A stretch of DNA of 64,000 nt from Convolutriloba macropyga (taxonomy: Eukaryota), in NCBI RefSeq assembly GCF_964194025.1, contig NC_134472.1:60140001-60204000 (forward strand). The letters run 5' to 3'. Positions 5,801 through 59,600 of this stretch are shown in pieces (position 1 is the first letter of the stretch; every line of letters begins with the position of its first letter). The translations under genes were made by a program, and so were the position numbers. The notes beneath the pieces are model-generated. The model saw nothing but the letters and a program-made list of their open reading frames with translations, was not told the DNA's origin and searched no databases.

Positions 5801-6070
5801 ACTGAGGGGGCCCAATCATTAAGTTTTCTTGAACCTACTAATTGTTTATATCATAACGTAAAGAAAACTTTTTTTGAATTTTTAAAGTCAAAGATGCAAT
5901 TTTTGCCAAACTCTAGTTGACTCTTTGTTAAAGTGCAAAACCCATAAACTAACTTTAAAACTGGTATGATAACAAACTGAGGGGGCCCAATCATTAGGTT
6001 TTCTTGGATTTATTAAAAAGTTTCCATTAAAAGGTTGGAAAAACGTTTTTGATTTTTGGCGCTCAAAAAA
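2890..6070. repeat. 175-bp tandem satellite, about 18 copies, with 4-mer/5-mer higher-order structure
   Basis: Motif (c/g)TGAGG recurs at 3351, 3526, 3702, 3877, 4052 ... 5803, 5978; core copies are highly similar. Confidence 0.97.
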
Positions 6071-6717
6071 GCACTTTTGCAAATTTTTCGTTTTTTGAGC
6101 AAAAATTTTACATTAACAACTAAGCTTTAAAAAAGTCAATTTAAAGTCCAACTGAGGTGTTCTTTTCAACTGCTAATTTTACTGTTATGTAAATTTTTTG
6201 CGACAAATTCAGAAAAATGTTTTTGAATTTTTCTGATGCAAAAAACGCTATATCGTTTTTTCGTAAAATCTGTGCGTTTTTTTGCTGCTAAATGCTGACA
6301 TGTGGTTTCTCATGGCTATTTTTTTTCATAAAGTATCGACAAAAGCTCGTTGGGGGACAATTTTCATGTTTTTGAGATTTTTGTCGCAAAAAAATTCAAG
6401 TTTTTTGGATACGTCTAACCGGGAAAGGGACTTCTGAGGTGACGTCTGGGACCTCGGGCTATCATCTCTTGGTGACGTCTGCAACTAAAAAAAAGTCAGG
6501 CTTTCTTGATCGGGTGACGTCTGATCCAAAAAAAACATTGTCTTGGGAGTCTTTTCCTGATGCTGATTGTCTTCGTCGTGATCAGTATTGGTCTAAGAAC
6601 CCATTGAATTCTGACACTTGGTACCGTTTCTTTGTCTCTTTGTCCTTGGGGGGGGGGGGTGATGTCACCCTCTTTGTTTTAAAAATATTCCGTTTCAGAA
6701 GGTAGACTATGTTTCTT

Positions 6718-9030: not shown

Positions 9031-9038
9031 GAATCTGG

Positions 9039-9192
9039 CAGACAAAAAACCAGTAAAAGAGCATCAAAAAAACCTTGCCGTCTAAACTCTCACTTGTTGC
9101 TATGTACATTACAATCTTAATACGTAACAATGCTAATACGTTACTTGAATTGAAGATACGAAAGAGTGTTGTTTTGTTTTACACCTTTGATA
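9039..9192 (+). repeat. Truncated 5' LTR of BEL element 2
   Basis: About 154 bp with roughly 5 differences from the distal part of the 3' LTR; followed directly by TGGTGCCGT. Confidence 0.9.
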
Positions 9193-21060: not shown

Positions 21061-21440
21061 ATATATGTAAGCGAGAGATATATCATCCAATCAGAATCGA
21101 GTTTTTAATTTGCGTATAGAATTGCGTCTAATATACACAAAAAGTTCCGGAAAAGTTCGTATAACCTAATTTTAAGTAAATAATACCATGATATGTAGCG
21201 AATAAAGCGGTTTTCGGCTTAATATTTTTAGGTTCTTTAGACAATTGTTGATCGATTATGAACCGATTCTGACGTCAATAACATCAGACAAAAAACCAGT
21301 AAAAGAGCATCAAAAAAAACCTTGCCGTCTAAACTCTCATTTGTTGCTATGTTCATTACAATCCTAATACGTAACAATGCTAATACGTTACTTGAATTGA
21401 AGATACGAAAGAGTGTTGTTTTGTTTTACACCTTTAATAC
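21048..21440 (+). repeat. 3' LTR of BEL element 2 (about 393 bp)
   Basis: Begins TGTTAG after the PPT; contains CCAAT (21087), AATAAA (21201), TGACGTCA (21270); distal part matches 9039-9192. Confidence 0.9.
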
Positions 21441-23930
21441 ATACAGAATGTAAAGACCTGGAGTCCTCCATTCGGAAATGCTCACACACGCATATCATAA
21501 TAAAAAAGGCGGCAAGGGAAGAATCTGGCAGTATGGAGAAATTGATGCAGCGATAGCCGAGATGAATGCGAAAAGCGAGGAAAGACACGTGTTCCCAGAA
21601 GAATACAAAATTGCAGCAGACAAAACGGAGGAGTCTGTGCTCGAGGTGTTGATGCTCAAAAAATATCTTGAGGGAGAAAATGGAAAAGACCAAAGAGAAG
21701 GAAATGTGGTCTCTAATCCACATATTCGAGGGGAGCGAACCCATTGAAAAAAGAGAAAGAATATCGTCCACAAGGACTACGCAAAGACAACAGACACGTA
21801 AAATACTTATGCACTGGTGAGCAAATATTCTAATTAAAGTAAACTGTAGCTAATGAAACCAGATCGTTGGGTACAAGCATCTCAGAACAGAGAATTCAGA
21901 AAAGAAACAGACAACGAAGATGGGTTCTCTCAGAATTTTACAATGAAAGAACTTAAGGCTTCAATCGAGAAAACTAACCCAACTAAAGCTGCGGAAGCAG
22001 ACGGAATGCATCCCAAATGATGAGACAGCTCGGGAAACGGACAATGGAGAGTCTCCTGGAGATGTGTGAGATGTCATGAGCAGATGCACAGCTGTTGCAA
22101 TTGTCGAGAAGTTACAGCATCTTTCCGATCCCCAAACCGGGAAAGGATGCGTCAAAAATGGAAACGCACAGGCCAATGAGTCTTACGACAGTTAGGGGAA
22201 GATGCTAGTAAGTATCGTGAAAAAAACGCCTCGGTTATTTTATGGAAAAAAATTGGACTTCTGACGGAATCGCAAGCAGACTTCAGACAAAGCTAATCAA
22301 CAGAAGACCAGTTGTTGCTAAGGTCACAATCAATCAGTGACATTAAGTGGCGAGTCCTATGCCCAGAACGGTGTGCGCCCTGATAGACTACAGCGGAGCT
22401 TACGATTCAATCTGGAGCGGAACTTTAGTGTGCACAATGATGGGAAAGAGAAAAACTACACAAATAATCAGATGGGTAAAAGCGTGGTTAGCGAACAGAC
22501 GGAACTGCGAGACAAATGGATAGGGGAAGAGCAGGTGCAGGACATTCCTTCAAGGAGCACCACAACGATCGGTAACCTCACCAATAATGTTCCCAATCTT
22601 CATAGACGATATAGCAGACGATACTGAGGATGGGATGCTTTTGTCAATGTTCGCAGATGATGTGCCGGTTATCTGTACTGTTAAATGTTTAGAAGTAACA
22701 AACAAGAGGGTAAAAACAACTAGATAGATGCAACAACAATAGATGCAATATCGATTGATTGTGACCTGTCGCCAAAAAGACAAGAAGCGGACAGCTGGCA
22801 GTTAAAGAACGTGGGAAATTGCTTCGGTTAAGTGGTATCAACCCCCGATATGCTGTCAGAACAACTGTACAAAACGAAGTAAAGTATAAAGAAAAAGGAC
22901 TGGTGAAGCTACTCCAGAAAATCTGGATAGAGATCACTGGACCCGACAAACTGAAACCTTTTCGCCCAACAGGACGCTCTGTGGAACGGCAATCAAAATC
23001 CAAAAATTTTACGACCAAGAAGAGCAACAACATAGATGAGCAAAAACGAATAACGAAACAGTTCCTCGAGAGCCTCGAACTTTGAAAAATATCTACACTG
23101 ATTGATAAGCAACAGCCGGAACATACAATGGAGGAGCAATGACGTTTTGCGAGGCCACAGGAGAGACATCATATTCAGGATCCGGCCGTTTTTGTTCAGA
23201 TTACCACGCCGAAATGACGGTTTTTTTTGGAACGCTCTGGATTACATTGAAAAGACAACTGAGAACAAGCAGTGCAGAATGATTACGGGATCGATGTGGC
23301 TTGAACAAAACCTAAGAAAGCTCAACATGCAGAAGCAATGGATTATTTCTACGGAAAAAACCAGTGCATCCCATTCTATATGAGATGCACTGGTCAGCCT
23401 AAAATAAATTTGGAGACGAAGCCGAAATAGAAGCCGTTTGGTGCCCCAACAATTGTGGGATTTACGGAAATGAACAAGCCGACAAAGCCGCTAATGAAGG
23501 TTCGACAGAAAAGCAAAAGACCGCAGAGGTAGCCTTTGAGGCTGCATGCTCAGAGATAAAGTGGATTCTAAAACTGAACAACCAACCTTTCAACACCACT
23601 ACCGAAGCATACATAGAAGATGCCAAAAAAATACCTGAGAGACAGAGTCCTGAACAGTTGTGAACAGACAATAAAATCAACGCTCAGATCAGGCCACCAC
23701 CAAGACCTGCGAGGGTGGCGAGGAAAAGTTGGGCTCACTGAGGAAGTTGATAACTGCTGTAGAGTACGCAGAATTGCAGAAGAAATCACTCGTCGCGTCA
23801 CCACCGACTGCTCAGGAATGTTCAACTAATACCAGAAAAACCGGAGCATAAAAAATCTGAAAACTGAACCTAAGAGGGCGCTTCAACTCTTTGAAAAGTG
23901 AAAGGAAAAGGCAGAAGATCAACTCACAAA
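21441..23930 (+). mobile_element. Ingi/I-group LINE, 3' part (degenerate RT, RNase H, C-terminal zinc finger)
   Basis: KAAEADGMHP, QADFRQS*STEDQLL, GAPQRSVTSPIMF, MFADDVP, CGIYGNEQADKAANEG (RNase H), LRSGH...C; resumes the sequence interrupted at 9030 and ends at an N gap. Confidence 0.88.
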
Positions 23931-26039: not shown

Positions 26040-29000
26040 ATGGACCAAGCCAAGTCAATGAAAATAACTCTAATTGGACACGGATACACAGGGAAAACAA
26101 GTCTGCTCAAACAGTTCACAGAAGGCAAGTACGTCACACTCTCTATTTCAATTACAACTGTAAAACTTTTTTTGGAATAATGTCAGGGTATACAATGCTG
26201 ATCTTCCCTCAACAGTCTGATTTTTGTCTGATCATAGTTTTACTGTTTCGAATAGTTTATCATAATTGCATCGTTTCGTACAATCCATCGGATTGGAAGC
26301 ATAAACTCGCTTCGCAGAATTACTTCGCAATGATTCAAGCTATGATTCTGGAGGCCCTGTTTGTAAGTTAGGCTAAAGAGCAATTTTCAGCTACAATCAA
26401 AATGTGATTGATTGCAATGCTAAACAACTACGTGCTTGAAACTTAACATAACTTCTAACGATATTGTCAGATTGACTTGGTCTTCGAGCATAGTATTTCA
26501 TGAACATAAAAGCATTAGCATTTCAAAGATGTGAATAAACTAATGTTGCATCGTAACACTGTCTATAAATTCTTTTATATTCGCCGTAAAAATACCAGAC
26601 GGAGCTGAAGTCAAGTGTGGAAATCTTCAGTCGACTAGGTATCCACTATGGTTTTATCTAAAGTACAAGGGATTTGAGTCGAGCATGCTCTTTCATACAA
26701 GACGCTTTTCGTTCATTGTCGTTTCATAAATCGAGGCTTAAACTTGAGCTCTGCTCATTCAATGTAATCATTTTCGAAGATTGCCCAGAATGAAGTCCGC
26801 GACCCAAAACAAGTAAGCGCCTGAAGGTCTTGGGCCGCGAGGGGTCTAATACCACCGAGTTCATAGTCTGGATCCTTCCTTGGTCGCGGCATTGCCTCTG
26901 GTTCCATGCCTGAATAATGTCGAGGGCATTATCATAATTAGCAACATTTGACTCATTTACAGGTGAATTTGACGAGCGTTATGTCGCAACTACGGAGGGA
27001 GGTGACTTTAAGAGTTGGGCAGTGGAGAGAGGAGGAGAACTGTATGACCTGAATCTGTGGACTGTTAGTGGACAAGCATGCAGATATCCTGGATCAGTGC
27101 CCCCTATTACCTTCAGGGGTTCTAACGCTATTGTACTAGGTGCCTCAACTTAACTCAACTATTTCACTCACTTTACCTCAACGTTATTTGTTACAAAGTA
27201 ATCTTATTTAGAGAAAATTATAACGTCCAGGGCCCAGGATTTAACAGAAAAATATGGGAAAGATGGAAAAAAGTGTAAAGAGTGCAAAAAAATGTTAGAC
27301 GGTTAGTGCTACCCTTAAAACTGTTCTAGAGCTCTTTACTAGATCATTTTTTTCTAGATTGTCAAAAATCAAACAGAAAAATTATTTAAAGAGTTTTTCC
27401 TGTCTAACAAATGAAATACAAATAAAAGAGTTTTTCGTCCGGCAAAATTTTTGCAAGTGATTTACCTGACCGCCCTCTGGGTTATCATCTTTCCGAAAAA
27501 TTATGCGGGTTGTTTTCACCTGTACACCATCTTGCCTGTACAGTGTGCAGGAAAGTTAACCTAAAATTATTATTTACTTTTGTGAGCACAATTTGGCACT
27601 AGCCGAACGAAAGCGCGCCAAAAAACATCGCCCGTTGATGTGCTCTTCTCAAAAATTTAAATTGGAGAAGATGAATTCTTCCTTCACGTTGAAAAAGATG
27701 AAGTAGCCACTGGAACAACACACTCTAGCACAATAGTTAAAATGATTGGCAGGAAAAAACTGTGCAAATTCCAGCAGATGGTCTAAAGAAAATACAAAAA
27801 TAAGAAAATCACGAAACATTTCAGCCACCAAAGAAAACATAAAAGAAACACACAAAAAATTTTTGTGCTTGCAATTCAGCAAACGCTCTACTAAAACATT
27901 GCCTATCAAAAGCTTGTTTCAGATGCTACACAAAATGACTTAAGTAAACTCTACATAGAAAGTTCGCAGAAAATGGTCAAACACAAATGAAGAAAACGTG
28001 TTTATAAAAAAAAGTGTACGAAAGACATTTTTAGAGACGCAATTTGCAAGAAATGGAAAACTCAGCAAAACAGAATTTAATTTGAAAAAAATGCGATTGT
28101 CCAGTCATTCCTGAATTGAGGTACTCAAAGAATCAAATATCCACAGAGTGTTTTTACGTTCCAAATAAAAATTTCTAAATATTATCCTTTACAATCAAAA
28201 CTAGTTTTACAGACTGAGAAAGTAGTTCTGTAACAATTAACCCTGAGCAAACAAATTGCGATCCAATGAAAAATAAACAAAAACAATTTCAACGAGAGCA
28301 AAATCTTAAAAATCATTGTATGTATATAAATCATTGTATGTATATAAACATATGCGGAACGCGTCACACAATTGTTCTTGAACTGTTCTGCATTGTAAAT
28401 TTAACAAAGAGAGCCATATTTATCAAATCAATATCCAATCAGTTATTCAACATTGCACCCTCAACATTGAATGTCAATATAATCAATAACCATAATGAGA
28501 AAAATTGAACACTTAGGTATAGTAATCTAAACAATTATTTTTCTAGCACTAACGTAATTAAACATTATTTTTCTAGCATTATCAGAAGATATTGTTTACA
28601 GGAGTGCAAAAATTTTTCTGGTCTCTCGAATTACAAAAGTATATTTTGAGTCCGAAAAATTATTCTTAATGTTATTGTTTTCAGACAGATGACAATGTGT
28701 CATAAAAACTTTCAACGGAAAAAAATATTCTACAGTTTATTTTAGATTTTTTTTCGAAATTTTATTCTGAGACAGCCAGTTTAAAAAAGACCATGTAGAA
28801 AACTGTAAGATGATTAGTTTATAATTTACCATATTTGAGTGGCCAATAAACCAAATAGAATAATTCTTTTGAATTTTTATCTTAAATGAGAATCCTTAAT
28901 GATAAAAAGAATACATAAATACAAGATTAAACATTTGAAAGATTTCGTATCTACTTCTTAAAATTTACTTTTCTGCGAATATCTTTTAGGACACAAGTAT

Positions 29001-32000
29001 ATACGAAAAGACTCTTTTCCATAGCTGCTGTTCTTTAAATAATGATACTGTGCAAATGAAGTCAAAACTGTTTTTTCCTTCAAAATCCTTTTTTCCTTCT
29101 TTCTTTAACATTTATTTATTTGAGTGAAAAGCTTAAGCCGGTTAGTTAAAGGTTTGATGCTTCTTGAAGAAAGCCAACAAGTTTCTTCTATTGGTGTTCA
29201 TCACTCTTCTATTGGCAAAAACAAAATCACTTCCTGTTTGTGAATGTGACGGGATGTTTCAGTCAAAGTTTCCGAAATTTGTATGACACATATCTTGATA
29301 GATCTTTTTCTTTCTGATAGCCACATTGAATAATCGAAATCTTTTTCTCTTGAGTTCGCCGGAGATCAATGACATCAAAATGTTAGAGAATAAAGTTGAC
29401 CACCATTTTTGTCACAAATCAGGCTGGCTTCATTTTCAAACTCTCCATTAACTCCTGCGTCCAATAATAATAATAACATTATTGTGTTCTTTAACTTGCA
29501 AAAAATAGATAGCAGAAGAAAAAACAGAGTGACTGGCAAATCTCGCAAAGCACATCAGGCCAATCTTGGCTTTTGGTACTCACGTATTGTTCCAGCTCCG
29601 TAAAATTTTTTTGTTGTGGTATTTATATCACCCTGACTGCTTTTTTGAGCAAAATTTGGCACTAACCGAACGAAAAAGCGTCAAAACAGATTGCCCATTG
29701 ATGAACTCTTCTCAAACGTCTAAATAATTGAAGTAGCCACTGGAACAATACACTCCCGCACAGTAGTTAAAATGATTGGCAGGAAAATCCCAGCAGAAGG
29801 TTTAAAGAATAACCAAAAATGAGAAAATCTGGAAAGTTTCAACTACCAATAAAAATATGAAGGAAACACAAGAAAAGGTCATGCTTGCCTTTCAGCAAAC
29901 GTTCTATGAAAGCATTGCCTATCAAAAGCTTGTTTCAAATGCTACACAAAATGACTTAAGTAAGCTATACAAAAAAATTTCAAACTTAAATGAAGAAAAT
30001 TGCGTATAAAAAGGTACGAAGGACGAGAAGCAATTTTTATCTTTAGCGATGACATTTTTTAGAGAAGCAATTTGCAAGAATTGGTAGTCTCAGCAAAACA
30101 AATTTAAACTAAAAAAATAGAATTTTTACAGTCATTCTTTGAAGTTGCATATCAATTGTTAGATATGTACTAGGTGTGATAAACTCTAGATATCTTAGAT
30201 CTACTTCAATGAAATAGAAAAAAAAACAGAAAACTGAAAAAGCTGAAAGGTCACATACCGCACCTTTGTCGATTGGAAAATGAAGTTCTTGACGCAATTG
30301 ATGATTGAAAATGACAAAATTGATGTCAACAGTCACAGTGAGACAATCATTTCACTTTCTGACCCTATCAAGCATAGCATGCAATCTCACTAGTTGGGAA
30401 ACAAAAACGTTGCAAGCAAATACAACTGAAGTACACAAGGAATCAAATATCCAGTGATTGTTTTTACGTTGCAAATAAAAACTCCAAAACGTTATCCTTT
30501 ACAATCAAAACTAAATTTACAGTCTGAAAAATCAGTTTTGTAACAATTAACTCTGTGCAAACAAATTGCGATCCAATGAAAAATAAACAAAAACAACTTC
30601 AACGAGAGCACAAATTTAAATATCAAAAAATATATATATGCAGAACGCATCGAGCTAGTAGTCACACATTTGTTGTTAAACTGTTCAGCATTGTTAATTT
30701 CAACAAAGAGAATAGAATATATCAAATCAAAATCCAGCCAGTAATTCAACATTGTATATTCAACTTTGATTATCAATATACACAATAACCATAGTGAGAA
30801 AAATTGAACACTTAGGCATAGTAATCTAAACAACATTGTTCCACATTATTTTTCTAGTTTTATCTGCAGATATTGGTTACACGAGTGCATTAATTTTTCC
30901 AGTCTTTTGGATTACAAAAGTCCATTTTGAATCAAAAAATTTATTAAGTATGTTTTTGTTTTCAGACAGATGAGAATGTGTCATAAAAGCTTTCAACGGA
31001 TAAAAGTTTTCTCCAGTTTATCCTTGAAATTTTTTTATGAAAATTTATTTTACATTGTTAAAGTTGTAGGATGAAAAGTTCATATTTACCATAATTAAGT
31101 GGCCAATAAAACAAATAGATTAGTTCTTTTGAAATTTATCTCAAATGAGAATCCTTAATGATTAAAAAAGTGCATAAATACAATGATATAAACATTTGAA
31201 AGAATTTATGTCTACTTCTTGAAATTATCTTTTAGAGTACAAGTTTATTCGAAAAGACTTTCATATCTGTTGTTCTTTAAATAATGATACTGTACAAAAT
31301 ATCATTGCTGCAATTGAAGTCAAAATTGTTTTTTCCTTAAAAATCTTTTTTTTCTTCAATCCTTAACATTCATTAGTTTGAGTTAAAAGCTTAAGCCGGT
31401 TAATTGAAAGTTTGCTGCCTCTTGAAGAAGGCCAACAATTATCTTCTTTTTTATGTGTTCAGCAGCAATTGGAACAAAATAACTTCCCGTTTGTGAATGT
31501 GACGAGATGTTTCAGTCACGGTTTCCCAAATTTGTATGATACTTATTTTGATAGATCTTTGTCTTTGTGATAGCCACATCAGTTAATCCAAAATCTTTTT
31601 TCTTGAGTTCGCCGGAGAAATTTATCAAGATTCTTTCATCTGGTTGAATCGATGGTTCAAACTAGCAAGCACCTAATTTTTCAGTTTTCAGGATCAATTT
31701 TTTTTCTAATATCATTTTTAAATGACAGACAATTGTAGATTTTTTGTTGTTGTCGTCTAATAATTGTTTCTTCTAGGGCTTGGCGTTTTGAAATTACACA
31801 AAGGTGTCCTAGGAATGCTTGAATTTTGTTTCGAAAGAATGCAAAGTCTTTTTCTTACTGTTTATTTTCTAATGTTTGTAAGCTTTTTTGAGCTTTGGCC
31901 TCTCAAGATGAGCTCCGGGAACAAAAAAAATTGTACATTCAGTCCGATTTTGTAACATCGTTCTCCACCAAAACGCTCTAATAATTATTATACTATCCTG

Positions 32001-45293: not shown

Positions 45294-46990
45294 TAATATT
45301 TCAGTGATAGTCCCTACTTTTGATTTCGTCCCACTTCCTCAGTTGTGCCTTGCGTCTACTAATGTGTAGAGCTTCTATGGTCATAAATTTTTCGCTATGC
45401 TGGCACTGATCAATTATTTTGTAATTAAAAGCCATTAATTACAACAATTGAGTTTGTAGACCACAAGAGACTTCAGATTGCTATCAAAATAAGAATTCAG
45501 GGATGATAGGCAAATACATTGTTTTTGCGTTTTGAATATGGTTTTCGATTCGCGCTTTTTTTCCAATTTTTGCTTCAATTGCAGGCTGATGTTATTTCGA
45601 TACTGCAGGAAAAACAATGGTTTAACATCTTTCACTGGCAATTTTTGTCCCCTCAGTTGTACCTTCTGGCCTTCATTTTTCAATTGAAGTTTAGTTATGA
45701 TTTTCTGTAAAGCATTGTTGGTTTTCTTGGAAGTCCCACATTCAGGGTATTTGTTATTTAGCCAAATATTTTCATTTTCCTTCAGAGCTTTGTCAAAATT
45801 TTGCTATGTGCTAGTGCTTATAAACACGCGGTGAACAGTCCCTTCTACAAAATTTTTTTTATGTTGGATTGGTGCACAGCGACGGATATTCAAGACAATT
45901 CACGTAGCGGTTGGTTTCTTGTAACACTCGCAATTATTTTTTTTGCAGTTGTATATATTGATGCTCATGTCTAAAAAAGCTAAATTACCATTTTCGTCAG
46001 GTTTTTCCACTGTAATTTCGTATGAAGGGTGTTTACTTTTCTGAGCAAGGTGTCCGGTTCACCATTTACGGTGAAAATTATATCGTCAACATATCTCAAT
46101 AATAGTTGTCTTTCAGTTTGTGGTTCACTATCTTATTTGTTAAGCTTCTTGCAATTAGAGCAGTACCACACCATATCCTTCATTTTCGCGTATAAAGTTT
46201 AGCATCAATATTTTGGCATTTTGCATGGAACGATTTCTCACATTTCTCATTTTCCACTCCTTTTCCTCTATAGGTTACTCTACGGTTGCATTCAGGGCAG
46301 AACTCAAGATCCTTTATTGACTTGATCCTATTTTCTAATGACTTCATCCAATTGTTAGCCAGAGTTACTGCAATTGATGCTCCCATTGCCAAGCCATCCC
46401 CCTGACAAAATCATCTGTCATTGCGTTTTAAACAGACATTTGTAACTGCTAGCTTCAAGAGTCTTTTCAAAGTCGATCTTCACATCTCAGGGGCGTGGTC
46501 ACTAGAATAAAGGCTCGGCAAGGCTATTTCAATTGCTTCATTAACAGGGACATTTGTATATAAGCTCTTCACATCCGAAGAAACGATGCTCTCAACAAGT
46601 CCGAGTTTTATGGATTCTAGTTTTCTCCGTGCATCCAGCGTTGACGTCTCAATGTTAGCACCAGGTACTTTATCAAAAGGTTGCGTGAGGAGTTTATTCA
46701 AATCGTAATAACTACTTCCCGGTATTGACAACACTGGGCGTAAAGGAATTCCATTCTCGTGCAATTTTGCTAGGCCATAAAGTCTCGGGGGGGGGGATGC
46801 TCCTTTTGAACACAATTTTTAATGAACTTTTTCGCTGAATAAAGAGCTCTTCTTCATATCAATCAACGCGCTGTTGATGTCTTTCTCAATCTTCAGAGCA
46901 ATGTTATCCACCGTACTAGCAATTTCTTGAAATTGGGTGCAATCGAGAACTCCCGCCAGCTTTTTGTGATATGATTCTCTTCATCACTCA
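45294..46990 (-). mobile_element. Penelope-like element (RT with inserted PHD finger, decayed GIY-YIG endonuclease), 5' truncated, inactive
   Basis: RLYGLAKLHENGIPLRPV, SDVKSLYTNVP, GLAMG, RYVDD, FLDM, WYKKP-like motif, SLVVYKLNC; ORF end LSLKY* near 45294. Confidence 0.92.
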
Positions 46991-47607
46991 AAATCCCCTG
47001 CCATTATCAAAATAGCGTTTTTAAATTGCGTTTTTTCAATAGCGTTCGCCCTTTCAATAGCGTTTTTAGATACTTAGAAGAACAGGAGTTATTTATAGTA
47101 CAAACGATTAGCTCATGACAATGAAATCAGTGATTTGAAAACGTCTGAAATGCACAATAATCTTAATGGTAACGTTCCTATATTTTGAAGAATTGTCTAA
47201 AGCTAATCGAAATCAGGTACTACCACTTATAATTCATGCTGGATGTACTCAAGTAAAGTTATTTGACGATAATAGTTTATCTGGGAAGACTTAGGTTTTC
47301 TTGAACTGTGCCTCTTCTACTCAATTTCTCAAGCTAGTTTTTGTCTTCATTGGGCGTCTATGTGAATAATAAAATACCCTTTAATCTGCCTTTAACTAAT
47401 CGTTTATGCACAGTAAATCATGTAAAAATATAGCACTTGCGTCGGGGGGTTGCAAATAATATGCACCCAATATGCTTGGGGTGGGGGGCACGAACGTAAA
47501 AGATCCGCTTTAAGTAGACTGAGCTTAATTAACCCTGGACCAGCAAATGTTCACCTGGTGTTAAGGATGACCTTTGGGTTGAATTTTTGTACGATTTGAC
47601 AGGTTGC

Positions 47608-50600
47608 ATGAAAATGTTGCTCAGAGTTCAGACAGCTGAGCAGGGTACTAAAAGGGTCGAGGTCAAAGAATCGGATACAACAGCCGCGCTGTATCAGAAA
47701 GCAGTTGACAGCTTCCAATTACCTACACCTAAGTCATATCGATTGTTCAGAACTAGAGATCTGAAACAATTAATACAACCAGGTAAGCTCAATATATTTT
47801 GGCTGCTTCTAATTACACGTTTGCCTGATTTGGTTTATTTTTTAAGGTGCTACTACGATTGGGTCATCAAGACTCAAACATGGTGATATGATATACTTGT
47901 TCAAAAGTGATGTAAAAGTTGGAACATTAACTGAAGGCAAAGGAGAATTTGTGACATCAACAGGTGCCTCTGAGCCAGCTTCCGGTAGCAAAACTGAACT
48001 CTCTGCAGATGTCTTAACCGGAACTGCGGCAATGTCCGTCGATATTGTCGAGGACGACGTGGACAAAATTTTGGGTCAAATGAGTGGTCAAATTGAACGT
48101 GAAATGAACCCACTGTTATGTAGACATAGCAAAAAGAATAAATGTGTGCACTGCATTCCGCTTGACCCATGGGATGAGCAGTACTTGAAAGATAAAGATC
48201 CTCCTATTAAAGTGAGTTGAATCGAAACTAATTCGTTCCGCGAATGATTATACAAACGTAAAGTTGTAAAGTCTTCTTTGTCAATTCTCAAAATTAGGGA
48301 CTGTTTAGTGAGTAAGTTTTGAGGCCGAGATTTCTCTTTCTTTTTGCTGCCTCGATTTGCAAGAGAATAAACCAAGAAATTGAAGTGTGATAAAGATGCA
48401 TTGCAGATATCAACAATTGATCAGGTTATGAAGGGATATCAGTAAAACGTAAAATTTCACGAGTTTGTCGACTAAAAAAAGCTTTGATCTTTAATCATAT
48501 TCGATTCTCAGCTTTGGTATTTCACAGAATAATTTTGACTTTTCACGAATCACTCTCTAGAAGCAACTGAGTTGGGCAGTCTGTGGTTTTTGAAACGCTT
48601 TAAATTAGAAGATATTTTGCCTATAAATCAAGAACTATTCATTGTGCGACATACTCAAGGAAGGAAAATCTTCGGCAGTCGAGCTTCAACTTTTCATAAG
48701 AGTGGAACTCATCTTTCAATAGCGTTTTTAGATACTTAAAAGAACAGGAGTTTTTTTACTGAACAAACGATTAGCTCATGCCAATGAATTCAGTGATTTG
48801 AAAACCAAGGGTAGTCCGCACCCTTATTTGGCAGCTAGATGAGCTTCGAAATTTTGTAACAGTTTTTACAAGCAGAAAAATGCTCCACGTGCTCAAGGGG
48901 CAAAAACTGAAGAGAAATTACTTCTATTTGTCTGTATTATGCTCGGTCCATGTTGACATTTTGTTATCACTTCGATTGGCCAAATAATTCTTGGTGTAAA
49001 CTGGTTTACAGTCTCAACTAAGGCGTCCGTTTTGAGCTGTTCAGATTGCTCTCTCCATTTTGGTCTACCTATTAGGTCTGAGGTTTACTCCCTTCAAAGT
49101 ATATTACAGAAGCGCTCAAAAGCGTTTTTGTGTAGTTGAAATCTTCCAATTAGCTATTAGAGGGCTAAGGCTAGATAAGGTCGTCTAAGATTGAATTGGT
49201 TGGATGTTAAGGCTTCTGCGTTGTTTTGATCAGAAGAAACGTAAGTTATGAGACGAGAGTTGAGGATCCTTTCTGTATCCGTGACAATTGTTTCAGAAAC
49301 TTCTGCAGACTTCCTATGGTGTGAACAGTGATCTCTTTGCTGTTTGAACTATTCTCTCCCGTATGCCTTTTAAAAGTTGAGCAAGTGGTGAGTTCATTTG
49401 TCAAACCTGCTGTTGTAATTGTTGGGAAATGTAGTTAATAATGATATTTTCAAGTTCAGGGCTTTTTTTAGTTGCCTGGTTATTAGCTTAGTATCCTATC
49501 AATTACAAGAATCGTCTAACTGCTAGTAAACAACTGTCCGTGTCGGCACTTTGGCAAACTGCCAGTAGCACTGCGCGAGTTATAAAACACGTAAAAATAC
49601 AGACGTTCGTTTTGTCAATGTTGCGAAGATTATCCCTAATATAGGAGGTTGCAAAAATCCCATTTGAGGAATGGGTACTGCTTTTCAGCGTCAGCAAATC
49701 GAAAATGCGGAAGAGCAAACGTCATTGGTGTAACATTCTGGGCTCTCCATCGGCGTCATATGAAAGAAGTCTGGCTGAGTCTTCTCAGGAATCTTTTGAG
49801 ACCTATGATTAGGAAATCTTGTTGCAGTTATGCTCTGACCAAATTCGTCCCCATGTGTTGACTGTTGTTGCTGTGAGCGTCTTGAATGTTTACATTATTG
49901 ACATGGTCAAGTACCATAGAGTGTTTTTGTTTCCAAGATATTGGCGCATGTCTGTCCTCCCCTGGCTTGCAAAATTCCATTTTCATCCAAAGTGTGTTGA
50001 ATTGTAAAGCTGTATCCCTCATTCTGGTTCTTGAACAGTTGGTAGTCTTATTGGTTTCCCAAAGCGTTCTGGCTGTTTAGTGTATTTTTTTGCAAAAAAT
50101 TTCTTTGCAGATGGTTGTTTTCCTTATGAGCATTCCTTTCCAAGAAAATTTTGTCTACTCATGACTGGGTATACAGATTTACTTCATACTAATTTGGTTG
50201 TTGTTAAGGTTTTCGTTTGATCAAAGCTCTAGTGTTGGGTCTTAAAAAAAGTTAGTCCTTGCAGTCATTTCTCTTCGAGATCTGTTGGTTCCATGGTCTG
50301 CAGGGCTCAATTTTCCAGGTGTGTTTCCATTCATCCGCATTAGCAGATTGCCATAAAAGTTTTGGTCGTTTCTCTGGCTTAAGCCAACGTAATGTCGCAG
50401 TACTATCCGTCGTGAAGTGAGTTGAGAACTTAAATGTCTTTAATACCTGCAAGCTTTGACTTTATTGAGCTCTGAAGTCTTTAAATTCTGCTACTAGGAA
50501 ACCGGCTATTTGGGTTTCCATTACTTCCGCCTCTAGTTCAAGTTTCGGTGTACTTATTTGCTATACGGGGCTACTCGGCATTAATTAATTACTCACAATT

Positions 50601-53600
50601 AACCGCTGAGGCGGTTGATGAATCTCTAATGACGTGAAGCTTCTGACTGGTGGTTTTTCGTATTACAAAGGCTGTTTTTTTAATGTAATTTCTGGCGTGC
50701 TTTTGAATTTGTAAATCCACTGCTACAGGTTGCGATTAATCTCGGCTAGTATTTCTTGATCCAATTTTCTGTCTTGTTTAATGGCTGCTTGGAGGAGGCT
50801 TCGAGTTCGTAATGCAAATTAATGAATTCACTATTGTCTAATCAATCTTATTAGCATGATTGATTTGACAATGTTGAATTCACGCACTTTGGTTTTAGCG
50901 GTGAATTAGCATGGAATCATTTGAACTAAAGTTAGGAATCAATTCGTACAAAGGAAATCAAATTCAGAATGTTTGAAATTAATAGTGAAGCTTGAGCTTC
51001 AACAAGCCTTGTTGAAATGTAGGAGCGTGTTTTGGCGTGATAGTAAATTTCTTACAGAGGCTTGTTCACGCTTATGGTACTTTGAAGACTCATCAGTCTT
51101 AAATAAATCTGCTGAAGTATGAGTAATGATCGCTTTGCTGTTTGAATTACTCTCTCCCATACGCCTTATAAAAGTGGAGAAAGCTGTGAGTTCATTTTAA
51201 AACCTGCTGTGGTAATTGTTGGTAAATGTAGTTATTAATAATGATATTTTTAAGTTCAGGGCTTTCTTTAGTTGTTATTTTTTCTGAGTTGTGAGAGATT
51301 ATTAGATTAGTGTTCTATCAATTATAGGAATTGTCTAACGCCAAGTAAACAACTGTCCGTGTCGGCACTTTAGCAAACTGCCAGTTGCACTGCACGAGTT
51401 TTTAAACACGTAAAAACACAGATGTTCTTTTTGCCAATGTTGCAAAGATTATCCTTATTATAGGAGGTTACAAAATTTTACTAGTTTTTTGAGGAATGGG
51501 TACTGCTTTCCAGCGTCAGCATATCGAAAATGCGGAAGATTGGACATCATTGGCGTTACATTCTGGGATCTCCATCTCCGGCATTTGAAAGTAGACTGGC
51601 TTAGTCTTCTTAGGAATCTTTCAAGACCAATGATTAAAAAATGGTGTTGCAGTTATGCTCTGAACCATTTCGTCCCCAAGTGTTGACAGTTGTTGCTGTG
51701 AGCGTTTTTTTACATGAGTGACATGGTTAAGTAACATAGGGTGTTGTTTCCAATATATTGGTGCATGTCTGTCTTCCCCTGGCTTGCAATTCAAAGTGGG
51801 TTGAATTGTAGAACTGTATCCCTCATTCGGGTTTTTGTACAGTTGGTGGTCTTATTGGTTTCCCAAAGCGTTCTGGCTCTTCATTGTATTTTTGAAGGAA
51901 AATTTCTTTGTAGACGGCTGTTTTCCTTTTGAGCATTTGTTTCCAAGTCAGAAATTTTGTCGGCTCGTGACTGGGTTTACGGATTTAGTTAATAATAATT
52001 TGGTTTTTGTTAAGATTTTTGTTTGATCAAAGCTCCAGTGTTTGGGGTCTTAAGAAATGTTAGTCCTTGAAGTCATTTCTCTTCGAGATCTGTTGGTTCC
52101 ATGATCTGCAGGAATCAATTTTCCAGGTGTCTTTCTATTCATCCGCATTAGCAGATTGTCCTAAAAATTTTTGTCGTTTCTCGTGCTTAAGCCAACCTAA
52201 TGTCGCAGTACTATCCGTTCTGAAGTGGGTTGAGAGCTTATATGTCTTAAGTACCTGCAAGCTTTGACTTCAATTAACTCTGAACTCTTTAAATTCTACT
52301 GCTACGAAAACGGCTAGTTTGGCTTCTATTATGTCAGCCTCTAGTTAAGTTAAGTTGTATTTATTTGCTATACGGGGATACACGGCATTTGCTAATGACA
52401 TAGTTGACAGTCACAATTACCCGCTGAGGCGGTTGATGAAGCTGTAATGACATGAAGCTTCTGAATGGTGGTTTTTCCTAATACAAGGCAGTTTTTTAAT
52501 GTAATTTCTGGCGTGCTTTTGAATTCGTAAATCCACTGCTACAGGTTGCGATTAATCGTGGCTAGTATTTCTTGATCCAATTTTCTGTCTTGTTTAATGG
52601 CTGCTTGGAGGAGGCGTCGAATTCATAATGCAAATTTATGAATTCACTATTGTCTAATCAATCTTATAAGCATGATTGATTTGACAATGTTGAACTCACG
52701 CACTTTGGTTTCAGCGGTGAATTAGCATGAAGCATTTGAACTAAAGTTAGAAATCAAATTCTACAAAGGAAGTCAAATTCAGAATGATTGAAATTTATAT
52801 TGAAGCTTGAGCTTCACCAAGACTTGTTAAAATGTAGGAGCGTGTTTTGGCGTGATCGTAAAATTCTTACAAAGGCTTGTTCACGCTTATGGTACTTTGA
52901 AGACTCATCAGTCTTTAATAAAGTCTGCTGAAGTGTGAGTAATGATCGCTTTGCTGTTTGTATTACTCTCTCCCATATGCCTCATAGAAGTGGAGCAAGC
53001 TGTGAGTTCATTTTGAAACCTGCTGTGGTAATTGTTTGTAAATATAGTTGTTAATAATTATATTTTCAAGTTCAGTGCTTTCTTTAGTTGTTATTTTTTC
53101 TGAGTTGTGAGAGATTATTAGCTTGGTGTTCTATCAATTATAGGAATCGTCTAACGCCAAGTAAACAACTGTCCGTGTCGGCACTTTAGCAAATTGCCAG
53201 TTGCACTGCACGAGTTTTTAAACACGTAAAAACACAGATGTTCTTTTTGCCAATGTTGCGAAGATTATCCTTATTATAGGAGGTTACAAAATTTTACTAA
53301 TTTTTTGAGGAATGGGTACTGCTTTCCAGCGTCAGCATATCGAAAATGCGGAAGATTGGACATCATTGGCGGTACATTCTGGGCTCTCCATCTCCGGCAT
53401 ATGAAAGTAGACTGGCTTAGTCTTCTTAGGAATCTTTCAAGACCAATGATTAAAAAATGGTGTTGCAGTTATGCTCTGAACCATTTCGTCCCCAAGTGTT
53501 GACAGTTGTTGCTGTGAGCGTTTTTTTACATGAGTGACATGGTTAAGTACCATAGGGTGTTGTTTCCAATATATTGGTGCATGTCTGTCTTCCCCTGGCT

Positions 53601-56600
53601 TGCAATTCAAAGTGGGTTGAATTGTAGAACTGTATCCCTCATTCGGGTTTTTGTACAGTTGGTAGTCTTATTGGTTTCCCAAAGCGTTCTGGCTCTTCAT
53701 TGTATTTTTGAAAGAAAATTTCTTTGTAGACGGCTGTTTTCCTTTTGAGCATTTGTTTCCAAGTCAGAAATTTTGTCGGCTCGTGACTGGGTTTACAGAT
53801 TTAGTTAATACTAATTTGGTTTTTGTTAAGATTTTTGTTTGATCAAAGCTCCAGTGTTTGGGGTCTTATGAAATGTTAGTCCTTGAAGTCCTTTCTCTTC
53901 GAGATCTGTTGGTTCCATGATCTGCAGGAATCAATTTTCCAGGTGTCTTTCCATTCATCCGCATTAGCAGATTGTCCTAAAAATTTTTGTCGTTTCTCTT
54001 GCTTAAGACAACCTAATGTCGCAGTACTATCCGTTCTGAAGTGGGTTGAGAGCTTATATGTCTTTAGTACCTGCAAGCTTTGAATTCAATTAACTCTGAA
54101 CTCTTTAAATTCTGCTGCTACGAAAACGGCTAGTTTGGCTTCTATTATGTCAGCCTCTAGTTAAGTTTAGTTGTATTTATTTGCTATACGGGGGCTACTC
54201 GGCATTTGCTAATGACATAGTTGACAGTCACAATTACCCGCTGAGGCGGTTGATGAAGCTGTAATGACATGAAGCTTCTGAATGGTGGTTTTTCCTATTA
54301 CAAGGCAGTTTTTTAATGTAATTTTTGGCGTGCTTTTGAATTCGTAAATCCACTGCTACAGGTTGCGATTAATCGTGGCTAGTATTTCTTGATCCAATTT
54401 TCTGTCTTGTTTAATGGCTGCTTGGAGGAGGCGTCGAATTCATAATGCAAATTTATGAATTCACTATTGTCTAATCAATCTTATAAGCATGATTGATTTG
54501 ACAATGTTGAATTCACGCACTTTGCTTTCAGCGGTGAATTAGCATGAAGCATTTGAACTAAAGTTAGAAATCAAATTGTACAAAGGAAGTCAAATTCAGA
54601 ATGATTGAAATTTATTTTGAAGCTTGAGCTTCAACAAGACTTGTTAAAATGTAGGAGCGTGTTTTGGCGTGATCGTAAAATTCTTACAAAGGCTTGTTCA
54701 CGCTTATGGTACTTTGAAGACTCATCAGTCTTTAATAAAGTCTGCTGAGGTGTGAGTAATGATCGCTTTGCTGTTTGAATTACTCTCTCCCATATGCCTC
54801 ATAGAAGTGGAGCAAGCTGTGAGTTCATTTTGAAACCTGCTGTGGTAATTGTTGGTAAAAATAGTTGTTAATAATTATCTTTTCAAGTTCAGTGCTTTCT
54901 TTAGTTGTTATTTTTTCTGAGTTGTGAGAGATTATTAGCTTAGTGTCCTATCAATTATAGGAATTGTCCAACGGCAAGTAAACAACTGTCCGTGTCGGCT
55001 CTTTAGCAAACTGCCAGTTGTACTGCACGAGATTCTAAACAAGTAAAAACACAGATGTTCTTTTTGTCAATGTTGCGAAGATTATCCTTATTATAGGAGG
55101 TTACAAAATTTTACTAGTTTTTTGAGGAATGGGTACTGCTTTCCTGCGTCAGCATATCGAAAATGCGGAAGATTGGACATCATTGGCGTTACATTCTGGG
55201 CTCTCCATCTCCGGCATATGAAAGTATACTGGCTTAGTCTTCTTAGGAATCTTTCAAGACCAATGATTAAAAAATGGTGTTGCAGTTATGGTCTGAACCG
55301 TTTCGTCCCCATGTGTTGACAGTTGTTGCTGTGGGCGGTTTTTTTACATAAGTGACATGGTTAAGTACCATAAGGTGTTGTTTCCAAGATATTGGTGAAT
55401 GTCTGTCTTCACTGGCTTGCAATTCAAAGTGGGTTGAATTGTAGAACTGTATCCCTCATTCGCTTTTCTTGTTTGATCAAAGCTTCAGTGTTTGGGGTCT
55501 TAACAAATGTTAGTCCTTGCAGTCAATTCTCTTCGAGATCTCTTGGTTCCATGGTCTGCAGGGCTCAATTTTCCAGGTGTGTTTCCATTCATCCGCATTA
55601 GCAGATTGTCCTAAAAATTTTTGTCGTTTCTCTTGCTTAAGCCAATCTAATGTCGCAGTACTATCCGTTCTGAAGTGGGTTGAGAACTTATATGTCTTTA
55701 ATACCTGCAAGCTTTGACTTTAATGAACTCTGAAGTCTTCAAATTCTGCTACTAGGAAACCGGCTATTTGGGTTTCCATTACTTCCGCCTCTAGTTCAAG
55801 TTTAGGTGTACTTATTTGCTATACGGGGCTACTCGGCATTTGCTAATGACATAGTTGACAGTCACAATTAACCGCTGAGGTGGTTGATGAAGCTGTAATG
55901 ACATGAATTTACTGACTGATGGATTTTCCTATAACAAGGCAGTTTTTTTAATATAATTTCTGGCGTTCTTTAGAATTCGTAAATCCACTGCTACAGGTTG
56001 CGATTAATCTTGGCTAGTATTTCTTGATACAATTTTCTGTCTTGTTTAATGGTTCCTTGGAGGAGGCTTCGAATTTGTAATGCAAATTTATGAAGTCACT
56101 GTTGTCTAATCAATTTTATAAGCTTGATTGATTTGACAATGTTGATTTCAAGCACTTTGGTTTCACAGGGGTGAATTAGCCTGGAAGCATTTGAACTAAA
56201 GTTAGAAATCAAATCGTACAAAGGAAGTCAAATTGAGACTGATTGAAATTAATAGTGACGCTTGAGCTTCAACAAGCCTTGTTTAAATGTAGGAGCGTGT
56301 TTTGTCGTGATAGTAAAATTCTTACAAAGGCTTGTTCACCCTTATGGTACTTTGAAGACTCAGCAGTCTTTAATAAAGTCTGCTGAAGTTTGAGTAATGA
56401 TCGCTTTGCTGTTTGAATTACTCTCTCTCATATCCCTCATAAAAGTGGAGCAAGCTGTGCGTTCATTTTTAAGTCTGCTGTGGTAATTGTTGGTAAATGT
56501 AGTTGTTAATAATGGTATTTTCAAGTTCAAGGCTTTCTTTAGTTGTTATTTTTGAGTTGTGAGAGATTATTATTTTGTGTCCTATCAATTATAAGAACCG

Positions 56601-59600
56601 TCTAACGGTAAATAAACAACTGTTCGTGTCGGCACTTTGGCAAACTGCCAGTTGCACTGCACGAGTTATTAAACACGTAAAAACACAGATGTTCTTTGTC
56701 AATGTTGCGAAGATTATCCTTAATATAAGAGGTTGCAAAATTATACTCCTTTTTCGAGGAATGGGTACTGCTTTTCAGCGTCAGCATATCGAAAATGCGG
56801 AAGATCAGACATCATTGGCGTTACATTCGGGGATCTCCATCGGCGGCATATGAAAGATGTCTGGCTGAGTCTTCTTAGTAATCTTTCAAGACCAATGATT
56901 AAGAAATCGTGTTGCAGTTATGCTCTGAACAATTTCGTCCCCATGTATTGACAGTTGTTGCTGTGAGCGTCTTGAACTTTCACATGAGTGACATGGTCAA
57001 GTACCATAGGGTGTTGTTTTCAAGATTTTGGTGCATGTCTGTCTTCTCCTGGCTTGCAAAATTGCAAAGGGGGTTGAATTGTAGAACTGTATCCCTCATT
57101 CGGGTTGTTGTACAGTTGGTAGTGTTATTGGTTTCCCAAAGCGTTCTGGCTCTTCAGTGTATTTTTTGCGCGAAAAATTTCTTTGTAGACGGTTGTTTTC
57201 CTTTTGAGCATTCGTTTCCAAGTTTGAAATTTTGTCGGCTCATGACTGGGTTTACAGATTTAGTTAATACTAATTTGGTTTTTGTTAAGATTTTTGGTTG
57301 ATCAAAGCTCCAGTGTTTGGGGTCTTAAGAATTGTTAGTCCTTGCAGTCATTTCTCTTCTAGATCTGTTCGTTCCATGGTCTGCTGGGCGCAATTTTCCA
57401 GGTGTGTTTCCATTCATCCGCATTAGCAGATTGCCATAAAAATTTTGGTCGTTTCTCTGGCTTAAGCCAACCTAATGTCGCAGTACTATCCATCCTGAAG
57501 TGAGTTGAGAACTTAAATGTCTTAATACCTGCAAGCTTTGACTTAATGAACTCTGAACTCTTTAAATTCTGCTGCTACGAAACCGGCTAGTTGGCCTTCT
57601 ATTATGTCAGCCTCTAGTTAAGTTTAGTTGTATTTATTTGCTATACGGGGGCTACTCGGCATTTGCTAATGACATAGTTTCCACTCACAATTAACCGCTG
57701 AGGCGGCTGATGAATCTGTAATGACATGAAGCTTCTGACTGGTGGTTTCTCCAATTACAAGGCAATTTGTAATTTCTGGCATGCTTTTGAATTCGTAAAT
57801 CCACTGCTACAGGTTGCGATTAATCTTGGCTAGTATTTCTCGATCCAATTTTCTGTTTTGTTTAATGGCTGCTTGGAGGAGGCTTCGAATTCGTAATGCA
57901 AATTTGAATTCACTATTGTCTAATCATTTTTATAAGCATGATTGATTTGACAATGTTGGTTTCACGCACTTTGGTTTCACAGCGGTAACTTAGCATGGAA
58001 GCATTTGAACTAAAGTTAGAAATCAAATCATGCAAAGGAAGTCAAATTCAGAGTCATTGAAATTAGCAGTGAAGCTTGAGCTTCAACAAGCCGTGTTAAA
58101 ATGTAGGAGGGTGTTTTTTCGTGATAGTAAGATTCTTACTAGGGCTTGTTCACCACTATGGTACTTCATCAGACTCATCAGTCTTTGAGACTAGAAAATT
58201 TTATTAAGCTAGTAGGTTTTCGTAAAATTGTTAGCTGACTTGTTCAACTTTATGTTTTTTGTTTTATGGGTACCGTATGAACGTGCAAATCGGAGTGACC
58301 CTTAATCATGGTCTGCAAAACGAAGATATTTTTGAAGTTGAGTTTGCAGTACAAAAATTTGCTTATAATAAACTGCAGACGTTTTTGTGATGCTTTTTGA
58401 TGTAATGAATTATATACTGTCAAATATACCTAATTTTTGTTGTTATGTAGCTCTCTTGATCATTTCAAAATCCCATAGCTCTCAAAATGATTCAGCTTTT
58501 AAAGTTAAAGTTATTAGTTAAAGATTTAAATCAGTCCATCAACTTTTTTTTGCCTTTTGCTGAATTGGTTTGTCTTTTGATTGTTCTTGAAATATGTTCT
58601 GATATTCATGGTCTACAAGTTTAATTTTTGGCTTTTACATGCTTTGTTTCAGTTCCTCTCTTTTCATTCGTATATCAGAAAACTACGGAGCGGAGCCGAC
58701 AAAGGGAAGTTTGTCTTTTTGGATGACATAAACTGCCAAATCATCCCAGGTTGTTCAGAGCACCCGCCCTGGCCCAACGGAATTTGTACCAAATGTCAAC
58801 CTAATGCAGTTACCTTATCCAGACAAGTGTACAGACATGTAGATTACGTCACCTTCCAAAATTCAGCCATAATTCATAATTTTCTAAACTTTTGGCGTAA
58901 GTCAGGGTTCCAAAGAGCTGGATATCTTTACGGTAAATACGAGCCTCATCTCGATGTGCCCCTGGGAACGAAAACTGTTGTTTACGCCATCTATGAACCT
59001 CCACAGAATTGTACTGCAAATTCAATCGAATTTCTGGAGGATCCAGACGAAGCTCTAGTGGACAGAATTGCGCAACATTTCGGTAACATTAAATTTTTCT
59101 CTATTCAAGGAGAAGAATGATTTAATAATAACATGCAGGGTTGCAACAGCACAATATGTTTTTAATGTGGTCAGAATTTCACTTCGTTTCGGAAAAATCT
59201 TATTTACAAATTAGTTGGTGTTTTTTGAGTTATAAAATTCATTTTGATTAGGATTTGTTGAAGCTCTAAGGGCATTAACTACTGCATAGTTTGAGTGGTA
59301 TCAGCTTTTGGCTGTCTTGATTTGATGATTGAGGGTATTTTTAGGTCTGCTTCGTGTGGGCTGGATCTTCACAGATTTAATACCAGAAGATATAACGAAA
59401 GGGACTGTCAAATATCTCCGAGGCGCTGATTCATACTTCTTATCAGCAGAAGAGACAATAACAGCTGCCTTTCTCCAGACGAAGCATCCTAACATGTGCA
59501 AGCTAGCCAAAAACGGAAGTTTCGGGTCCAAATTTGTGACGGTCTGTGCCACTGGAAATTCAGAGAATCAAATCCATTTTGAGGCTTACCAGATATCAAA

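What the first reader, a model, noticed from the sequence alone, without database searches (positions are those of the whole stretch)
49300..58186. Macrosatellite built from a BEL/Pao RNase H-integrase segment inside NPL4 intron 2
Seen: five head-to-tail units of about 1.8 kb, antisense to NPL4, each with decayed RNase H and integrase motifs and no LTRs between them; only the leftmost continues into the integrase C-terminus. The same frameshift (WKHT/WKIE) is shared, so amplification followed inactivation. Inference: a satellite being born from internal retrotransposon coding sequence, making up about 9 kb of a 10.4-kb intron of an essential gene; read-through would give antisense BEL pol RNA, a possible piRNA/siRNA source.
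Basis: partly seen in the sequence, partly recalled or inferred. Interest (0 to 1): 0.7.

Follow-up and report, generated by a model that had tools for sequence, protein, structure and literature searches.

The report
Tandem array from one dead retrotransposon
Five head-to-tail 1.8-kb copies of a piece of one broken jumping gene fill most of an intron of the NPL4 gene, which is still spliced cleanly; they likely arose by an ordinary local DNA duplication and uneven recombination, a kind of repeat that is common in this genome.

Summary
The array is real: five units (1783, 1816, 1817, 1638, 1815 bp; 88-97% alike) at 49318-58186, on the strand opposite NPL4, filling 85% of a 10,441-bp intron that a public contig splices out exactly. 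The units derive from BEL/Pao pol (RNase H/A17 region to integrase core) and share frameshifts and stops, so decay preceded amplification. One claim fails: every unit does carry an LTR. Each unit is about 97 bp of locus-unique flank + LTR positions 1-148 of 162 + a ~40-bp inverted LTR copy + the pol piece; about 6 kb (PBS, gag, protease, RT) is missing. Unit boundaries lie outside the LTR, so the array is best explained by tandem duplication of chromosomal DNA, then unequal crossing-over or conversion (units are mosaics). No second locus was found. Kilobase-period tandem repeats are common here (7 of 40 sampled 10-kb pieces with period of 500 bp or more). Retrotransposon-derived long-monomer repeats are known from plants. 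No evidence for small RNAs; only 1.6% of array 26-mers lie within two mismatches of a young family copy. Ordinary, with a neat readable history. The earlier scan notes shown for this genome did not describe this array.

The parts
49318..58186 (-). Five-unit tandem array, period about 1.81 kb, element sense on the minus strand
   Evidence: self-BLAST; unit alignment
48943..49317 (-). Unduplicated 3' part of the original element: integrase C-terminal part and partial DUF5641; likeness to the family ends near 48934-48943; no 3' UTR, 3' LTR or target-site copy found
49318..51100 (-). Unit 1 (1783 bp): pol piece to 50819, inverted LTR piece 50816-50856, LTR 50847-51004, flank 51005-51100; most diverged unit (87 private substitutions)
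51101..52916 (-). Unit 2 (1816 bp): pol piece to 52635, inverted piece 52632-52672, LTR 52663-52819, flank 52820-52916; 97.4% like unit 3
52917..54733 (-). Unit 3 (1817 bp): pol piece to 54452, inverted piece 54449-54489, LTR 54480-54636, flank 54637-54733
54734..56371 (-). Unit 4 (1638 bp): mosaic; low-coordinate half like units 2/3, high-coordinate half partly like unit 1; about 180-bp deletion at 55465/55466; inverted piece 56084-56123, LTR 56116-56274, flank 56275-56371
56372..58186 (-). Unit 5 (1815 bp): pol piece to 57903, inverted piece 57900-57938, LTR 57930-58088, flank 58089-58186 that runs on into host intron DNA
58089..58186 (.). About 97-bp flank, copied into every unit; found nowhere else in the genome search and not like the family's 3' UTR; read as host intron DNA upstream of the 5' LTR (inference)
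48212..58652 (+). NPL4 intron 2, 10,441 bp, GT..AG
   Evidence: joint in X5 contig; ends
47845..48211 (+). NPL4 exon 2 (UN_NPL4 end, zf-NPL4 start)
58653..59081 (+). NPL4 exon 3 (zf-NPL4, NPL4 domain start)

Best explanation
A single broken BEL/Pao retrotransposon lies antisense in NPL4 intron 2, and a 1.8-kb stretch made of 97 bp of flank, most of its LTR and part of its pol gene is present five times in a row, likely through a tandem duplication of chromosomal DNA followed by unequal crossing-over and gene conversion, with likely no function. Order of events (inferred): (1) insertion; (2) loss of about 6 kb between LTR position 148 and the RNase H region, with a ~40-bp inverted copy of the LTR at the join, as fold-back or template-switch repair would leave; loss of the 3' end; decay of pol; (3) one tandem duplication with one breakpoint in the flank outside the LTR and the other in the integrase core, at a short A/T microhomology; (4) growth to five units by unequal exchange, the last step giving units 2 and 3, with a later deletion in unit 4. 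The spliceosome removes the whole array with the intron.
For: Shown: every unit has the same four-part build. The piece after LTR position 148 scores 48-56 against the reverse complement of the LTR (maximum 25.5-34 in 500 shuffles per unit) and 15.5-17.5 against the true LTR end plus PBS. All four junctions share one form. The 97-bp flank matched only this array (4 of 4 candidates scored). In one alignment 8 frame-breaking indels and 4 stops inside the pol piece are common to 5 of 5 units. Sites that vary among units show no third-position excess (96/70/76 of 408/411/410 columns, p 0.10), while sites fixed in all units but unlike L021 do (55/47/90, p 0.0003). Informative sites cluster in tracts: 43 like neighbours among 75 sites, against 19.4 in shuffles, 0 of 10,000 reaching it. 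Outer units carry most private changes (87 and 56, against 16 and 11 in units 2 and 3). No other place above 71% among 40 of 297 candidates scored; none spans the LTR-pol join among 40 of 227. 7 of 40 sampled 10-kb pieces have a tandem repeat with primary period of 500 bp or more. NPL4 is spliced across the array.
Against: The true parent subfamily was not found; L021 is only about 67% alike in pol, so some shared indels may be alignment artefacts (one pair near residues 1328/1336 cancels out) and the LTR end of the parent is inferred from a cousin. The microhomology at the duplication junction is blurred by decay, and the junction can also be read as a short fold-back. No target-site copy was found, so the host origin of the 97-bp flank is inferred from uniqueness only. 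Genome searches score only the best 40 candidates. Neutrality is inferred from codon positions; nothing here tests transcription or chromatin. No long read across the array was seen.
Confidence: 0.82

Rival explanations
1. The array is a tandem of internally deleted LTR elements that share LTRs, made during retrotransposition or by LTR-LTR recombination, like TRIM tandem arrays.
For: Each unit has an LTR. The same family has such a structure elsewhere: three LTRs and two short internal parts with matching 5-bp flanks at L035.
Against: Unit boundaries lie 97 bp outside the LTR and inside the integrase core; the LTR lacks its last 14 bp and the PBS; no 3' UTR or PPT precedes the LTRs (flank scores 18 against the family 3' UTR, shuffle mean 21); no terminal 3' LTR (score 28.5, shuffle mean 25.3, maximum 40.5).
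Confidence: 0.06
2. The array is kept because it works: NPL4 read-through gives antisense pol RNA and five LTR hairpins that feed small RNAs against the young BEL/Pao family, or the five LTR pieces drive antisense transcription that tunes NPL4.
For: Orientation is antisense to pol; a young family with 98-100% alike LTR pairs exists; each unit folds a DNA hairpin at the LTR join (-9 to -20 kcal/mol against -6 for the family LTR end, no shuffle control).
Against: Of 8844 array 26-mers only 38 lie within one mismatch and 140 within two of L021 (no shuffle control). Hairpins have decayed in units 4 and 5. Amplification is explained without selection.
Confidence: 0.07
3. The copy number is an assembly artefact (false expansion or collapse).
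For: No laid contig spans the array; junctions 1/2, 2/3 and 3/4 were not bridged in the rows shown.
Against: Units differ by 2.6-12%. Sequence unique to each of the five units is matched exactly by contigs of run X3 at depth 78-106, like the flanks (78-88); one merged unit 3/4 contig has 171.5. The unit 4/5 junction is bridged (56185-56420). X6, of another study, holds four exact 151-nt records unique to units 2 and 4. The tool warns that contig depth is no copy number, and X3 may be the assembly's own sample.
Confidence: 0.05

Closest known systems
Retrotransposon-derived long-monomer tandem repeats of plants: maize CRM1TR/CRM4TR, potato sobo (4.7-kb monomer with LTR and genomic DNA), rye E3900, a Cereba gag-like wheat/rye repeat (PMC3648361; abstract, Background and Discussion read)
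   Same: Monomer holds LTR sequence joined to another part of the element by a deletion; locus-specific; mosaic monomers; sobo also mixes LTR and genomic DNA.
   Different: BEL/Pao, in an animal, in an intron of a housekeeping gene; five copies only; monomer mostly pol coding sequence; breakpoint outside the LTR; inverted LTR piece at the deletion join.
Tandem LTR-retrotransposon structures sharing internal LTRs (PMC11899658, abstract read) and tandem TRIMs (PMC4528315, PMC6934838, search listing only)
   Same: LTR and internal part alternate head to tail at one locus.
   Different: No complete LTR, PBS, PPT, terminal 3' LTR or target-site copy; units include outside flank; not a single-insertion product. 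L035 in this genome fits that class better.
TE tandem dimers expanding into arrays in Drosophila (PMC5932611, abstract read)
   Same: TE sequence as seed of a small array that can grow by recombination.
   Different: There the dimers arise by double insertion of active elements; here all units share lesions, so they come from one dead copy.
Ogre-derived satellites of Lathyrus (PMC7004042, passages read)
   Same: Satellite origin from an LTR retrotransposon.
   Different: Those are short repeats from the region downstream of the coding sequence, spread by the element; this is a kilobase unit at one locus.

Membership tests
BEL/Pao LTR retrotransposon (origin of the unit) | Pao peptidase A17 / RNase H region, H2C2 zinc finger and rve integrase, DUF5641, DUF1759 in the family | tested here: met
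   All in the relative L021; units align to its residues ~830-1384; DUF5641 directly in the left flank. Pfam on units 3 and 5 alone gave no hit. That these families mark BEL/Pao is recalled, apart from Pfam's own description of A17.
BEL/Pao LTR retrotransposon (origin of the unit) | LTR of the family next to the internal part | tested here: met
   LTR positions 1-147/148 of 162 in 5 of 5 units, 82-86% identity.
Intact or mobile LTR element | Two complete LTRs, PBS, PPT, target-site copy | tested here: not met
   LTR end and PBS absent; no 3' UTR or 3' LTR; five target-site patterns not found in 48214-49000.
Tandem LTR-RT / tandem TRIM array | Unit boundaries within shared LTRs, array bounded by LTRs | tested here: not met
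   Boundaries lie 97 bp outside the LTR and in the integrase core.
TE-derived tandem repeat | Head-to-tail units homologous to a TE with one shared junction | tested here: met
TE-derived tandem repeat | Concerted-evolution marks (mosaic units, diverged ends) | tested here: met
Satellite / macrosatellite in the strict sense | Long array of many units | tested here: not met
   Five units, one locus among the candidates scored.
Satellite / macrosatellite in the strict sense | Copy number varies among individuals | not testable with these tools
   Only assembled contigs were served; they show units 2 and 4 in another study but no copy number.
piRNA/siRNA source locus | Small RNAs map to it, antisense to an active TE | not testable with these tools
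   No raw small-RNA reads were offered.

The most novel reading that the evidence does not exclude
An LTR-bearing array inside an essential gene's intron acts as a built-in silencing source: every NPL4 pre-mRNA carries five antisense pol pieces and five LTR fold-back hairpins that are cut into small RNAs against the young BEL/Pao family, so selection, not drift, kept the expansion.
Probability: 0.07. Interest if true: 0.6.

Novelty: new member of a known kind. Interest (0 to 1): 0.24.

Why it matters
It is a small, readable case of the first steps from a dead retrotransposon to a tandem array in an animal: deletion with an inverted insert, one duplication junction, then mosaic growth. It shows that an essential gene tolerates 8.9 kb of such repeat in an intron. 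It does not change what is known: retrotransposon-derived long-unit repeats are described in plants, and kilobase-period arrays are common in this genome. It would matter more only if small RNAs or antisense starts map to it.

Tried and rejected
3' LTR or 3' UTR at the left end: local alignment no better than shuffles; a genome search with 48300-48945 found only itself, the 93-bp twin and one weak 78% hit. Target-site copy: five patterns, none found. My first global alignment seemed to show a complete LTR end; two searches showed that this stretch is an inverted LTR copy instead. The idea that the 97-bp flank is an inverted LTR of another family: no other match in the genome. Pfam on five background arrays: no hit in 30 frames, but the test is insensitive (it also missed units 3 and 5), so whether those arrays come from TE coding DNA is open. 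Expression: no RNA holder listed; X5 had no contigs inside most of the array; neither is evidence. Literature: 'BEL Pao' + tandem + satellite + retrotransposon gave 1 unrelated-looking paper by its listing (the phrase form may miss papers that print a slash); searches gave no listing of a BEL/Pao pol array in an intron. Most subscription papers are not searched, so absence from print is not shown. No tree was built, because the units are mosaics.

Full report
Observation. Self-BLAST of the window shows a direct repeat of period about 1.81 kb between 49318 and 58186. In register the units are 1783, 1816, 1817, 1638 and 1815 bp, with pairwise identity 88.1-97.4%; unit 4 has a gap of about 180 bp at 55466. 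Pfam places NPL4 exons on the plus strand on both sides. One 2091-nt contig of run X5 joins 47780-47845, 48211-58653 and 59081-59344, all GT..AG, so the array lies in intron 2 (10,441 bp) and is spliced out (the tool lists the run as 'DNA?', that it is RNA-derived is my inference from three intron skips).

What the unit comes from. A search of the own genome with unit 3 gave the six pieces of the array and 40 other matches at 64-71% identity (40 of 297 candidates scored). Fourteen of these were fetched and are mostly 96-98% alike among themselves. Six were read in full length: about 9-kb elements with 162-bp LTRs 98-100% alike, a PBS and, in three, a visible 5-bp target-site copy. Pfam on one of them (L021) gives DUF1759, RVT_1, Peptidase_A17, RT_RNaseH_2, Integrase_H2C2, rve and DUF5641, the BEL/Pao set. 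tblastn aligns each unit to residues about 830-1384 of its pol frame, and unit 1 with its flank on to 1517. The BEL/Pao origin is therefore shown.

The correction. Each unit also matches the family LTR from its first base: positions 1-147/148 of 162, at 82-86% identity in 5 of 5 units. The LTR's last 14 bp and the PBS are absent. In their place is a ~40-bp inverted copy of LTR positions 110-150 (score 48-56, shuffle maxima 25.5-34; score against the true end plus PBS 15.5-17.5), and then pol starts at L021 base 6494 in all five. About 6 kb of the element is thus missing at this join. Upstream of the LTR each unit has about 97 bp that matched nothing else in the genome (4 of 4 candidates were this array) and not the family's 3' UTR; in unit 5 it runs on into the host intron. 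I read it as host DNA. No 3' UTR, 3' LTR or target-site copy was found at the left end.

Order of events. In one alignment to L021, 8 frame-breaking indels, among them the one at the WKH motif, and 4 stops within the pol piece are shared by all five units (L021 is a cousin at about 67%, so some may be artefacts). Variation among units is even across codon positions (96/70/76, p 0.10), whereas differences fixed in all units are third-position rich (55/47/90, p 0.0003): selection on pol ended before amplification. All four junctions have one form, joining the flank to the integrase core near a short A/T microhomology that decay has blurred. Informative sites come in tracts (43 like neighbours among 75 sites; shuffle mean 19.4; 0 of 10,000): units 2-4 group together in the low-coordinate half, units 1 and 4 share a tract in the other half. 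The outer units hold most private changes. This is the pattern expected from unequal crossing-over with conversion (established knowledge; the mechanisms are listed in PMC3648361, Background). The fold-back reading of the LTR join is inference.

Is the assembly right? Run X3 has exact contigs on sequence unique to each unit at depth 78-106, like the flanks, and one majority-path contig of units 3/4 at 171.5. The unit 4/5 junction is bridged; the others were not among the rows shown (8 of 53 pieces). X6 (another study, another organism label, small share) holds four exact 151-nt records unique to units 2 and 4, and X5 one across the left end of the array. The tool warns that contig depth is no copy number and X3 may be the source sample, so this is support, not proof.

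How unusual? In 40 pieces of 10 kb taken at round coordinates on 15 contigs, 26 had some tandem repeat and 7 had a primary period of 500 bp or more, for example 2167 bp x 2.4 or more, 985 bp x 10 or more, 1651 bp x 3.8 or more. The window itself has a 175-bp array and another kilobase-scale duplication. Whether those arrays derive from TE coding DNA is open (one search was insensitive). In print, PMC3648361 (abstract, Background, Discussion read) describes LTR-UTR repeats from maize CRM elements and lists sobo (4.7-kb monomer with LTR and genomic DNA), E3900 and a gag-like repeat; PMC11899658 and PMC5932611 (abstracts) and PMC7004042 (passages) describe other routes. My searches listed no BEL/Pao pol array in an intron, but the library is partial.

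Function. NPL4 read-through would indeed be antisense to pol. But only 38 of 8844 array 26-mers lie within one mismatch and 140 within two of L021 (no shuffle control), and no small-RNA data were available. Each unit can fold a hairpin at the LTR join, weaker in units 4 and 5, and each junction carries an AATAAA on the NPL4 strand (window rate 1.1 per kb); neither is evidence of use. I commit to neutral local amplification (0.82).

Verdict. Real, BEL/Pao-derived, LTR-containing, single-locus five-unit array; new member of a known kind; interest 0.24.

Noticed in passing
L035:494-1640 (G000:C12, about 43.078-43.079 Mb): Miniature tandem of the same BEL/Pao family: three LTRs and two ~330-bp internal parts (PBS joined to the 3' UTR), with matching 5-bp flanks, like a tandem TRIM inserted in one event. 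The join was found at these two places and, at 84%, at one place on C1 (40 of 148 candidates).
   Followed up: partly
L037:1028-1660 (G000:C4): Two LTRs around a ~310-bp 3' UTR piece; deletion ends at nearly the same element position (8494/8495) as in L035.
   Followed up: partly
L023 (G000:C5:60121700-60131600): A full-length young copy of the family, with a broken pol frame, ends about 9 kb before the window start; it is no closer to the array (about 67%) than other copies.
   Followed up: partly
window 51102, 52917, 54734, 56372: Each of the four junctions carries AATAAA on the NPL4 strand, a possible intronic poly(A) signal; the hexamer occurs 1.1 times per kb in the window.
   Followed up: no
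window 48713-48805 and 47051-47142: A 93-bp stretch upstream of NPL4 exon 1 recurs at 91% in intron 2; no third copy in the genome search.
   Followed up: partly
window 2900-6092: Tandem array of about 175-bp units, about 18 copies; arrays of 174-180 bp filled several sampled pieces elsewhere; likeness between them not tested.
   Followed up: no
window 27577-31618: Older kilobase-scale direct duplication, 70-77% identity.
   Followed up: no
window 8928-9192 and 21285-21540: Two short blocks (103 and 155 bp, 97-99%) repeated 12 kb apart in swapped order around a GC-richer stretch; possibly ends of another element.
   Followed up: no
window 46480-46818 (minus): Weak RVT_1 fragment (E 0.012) upstream of NPL4.
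   Followed up: no
window 54298 and 58229: Run X1 shows other letters here that X3 does not, so samples or haplotypes differ in and beside the array.
   Followed up: no
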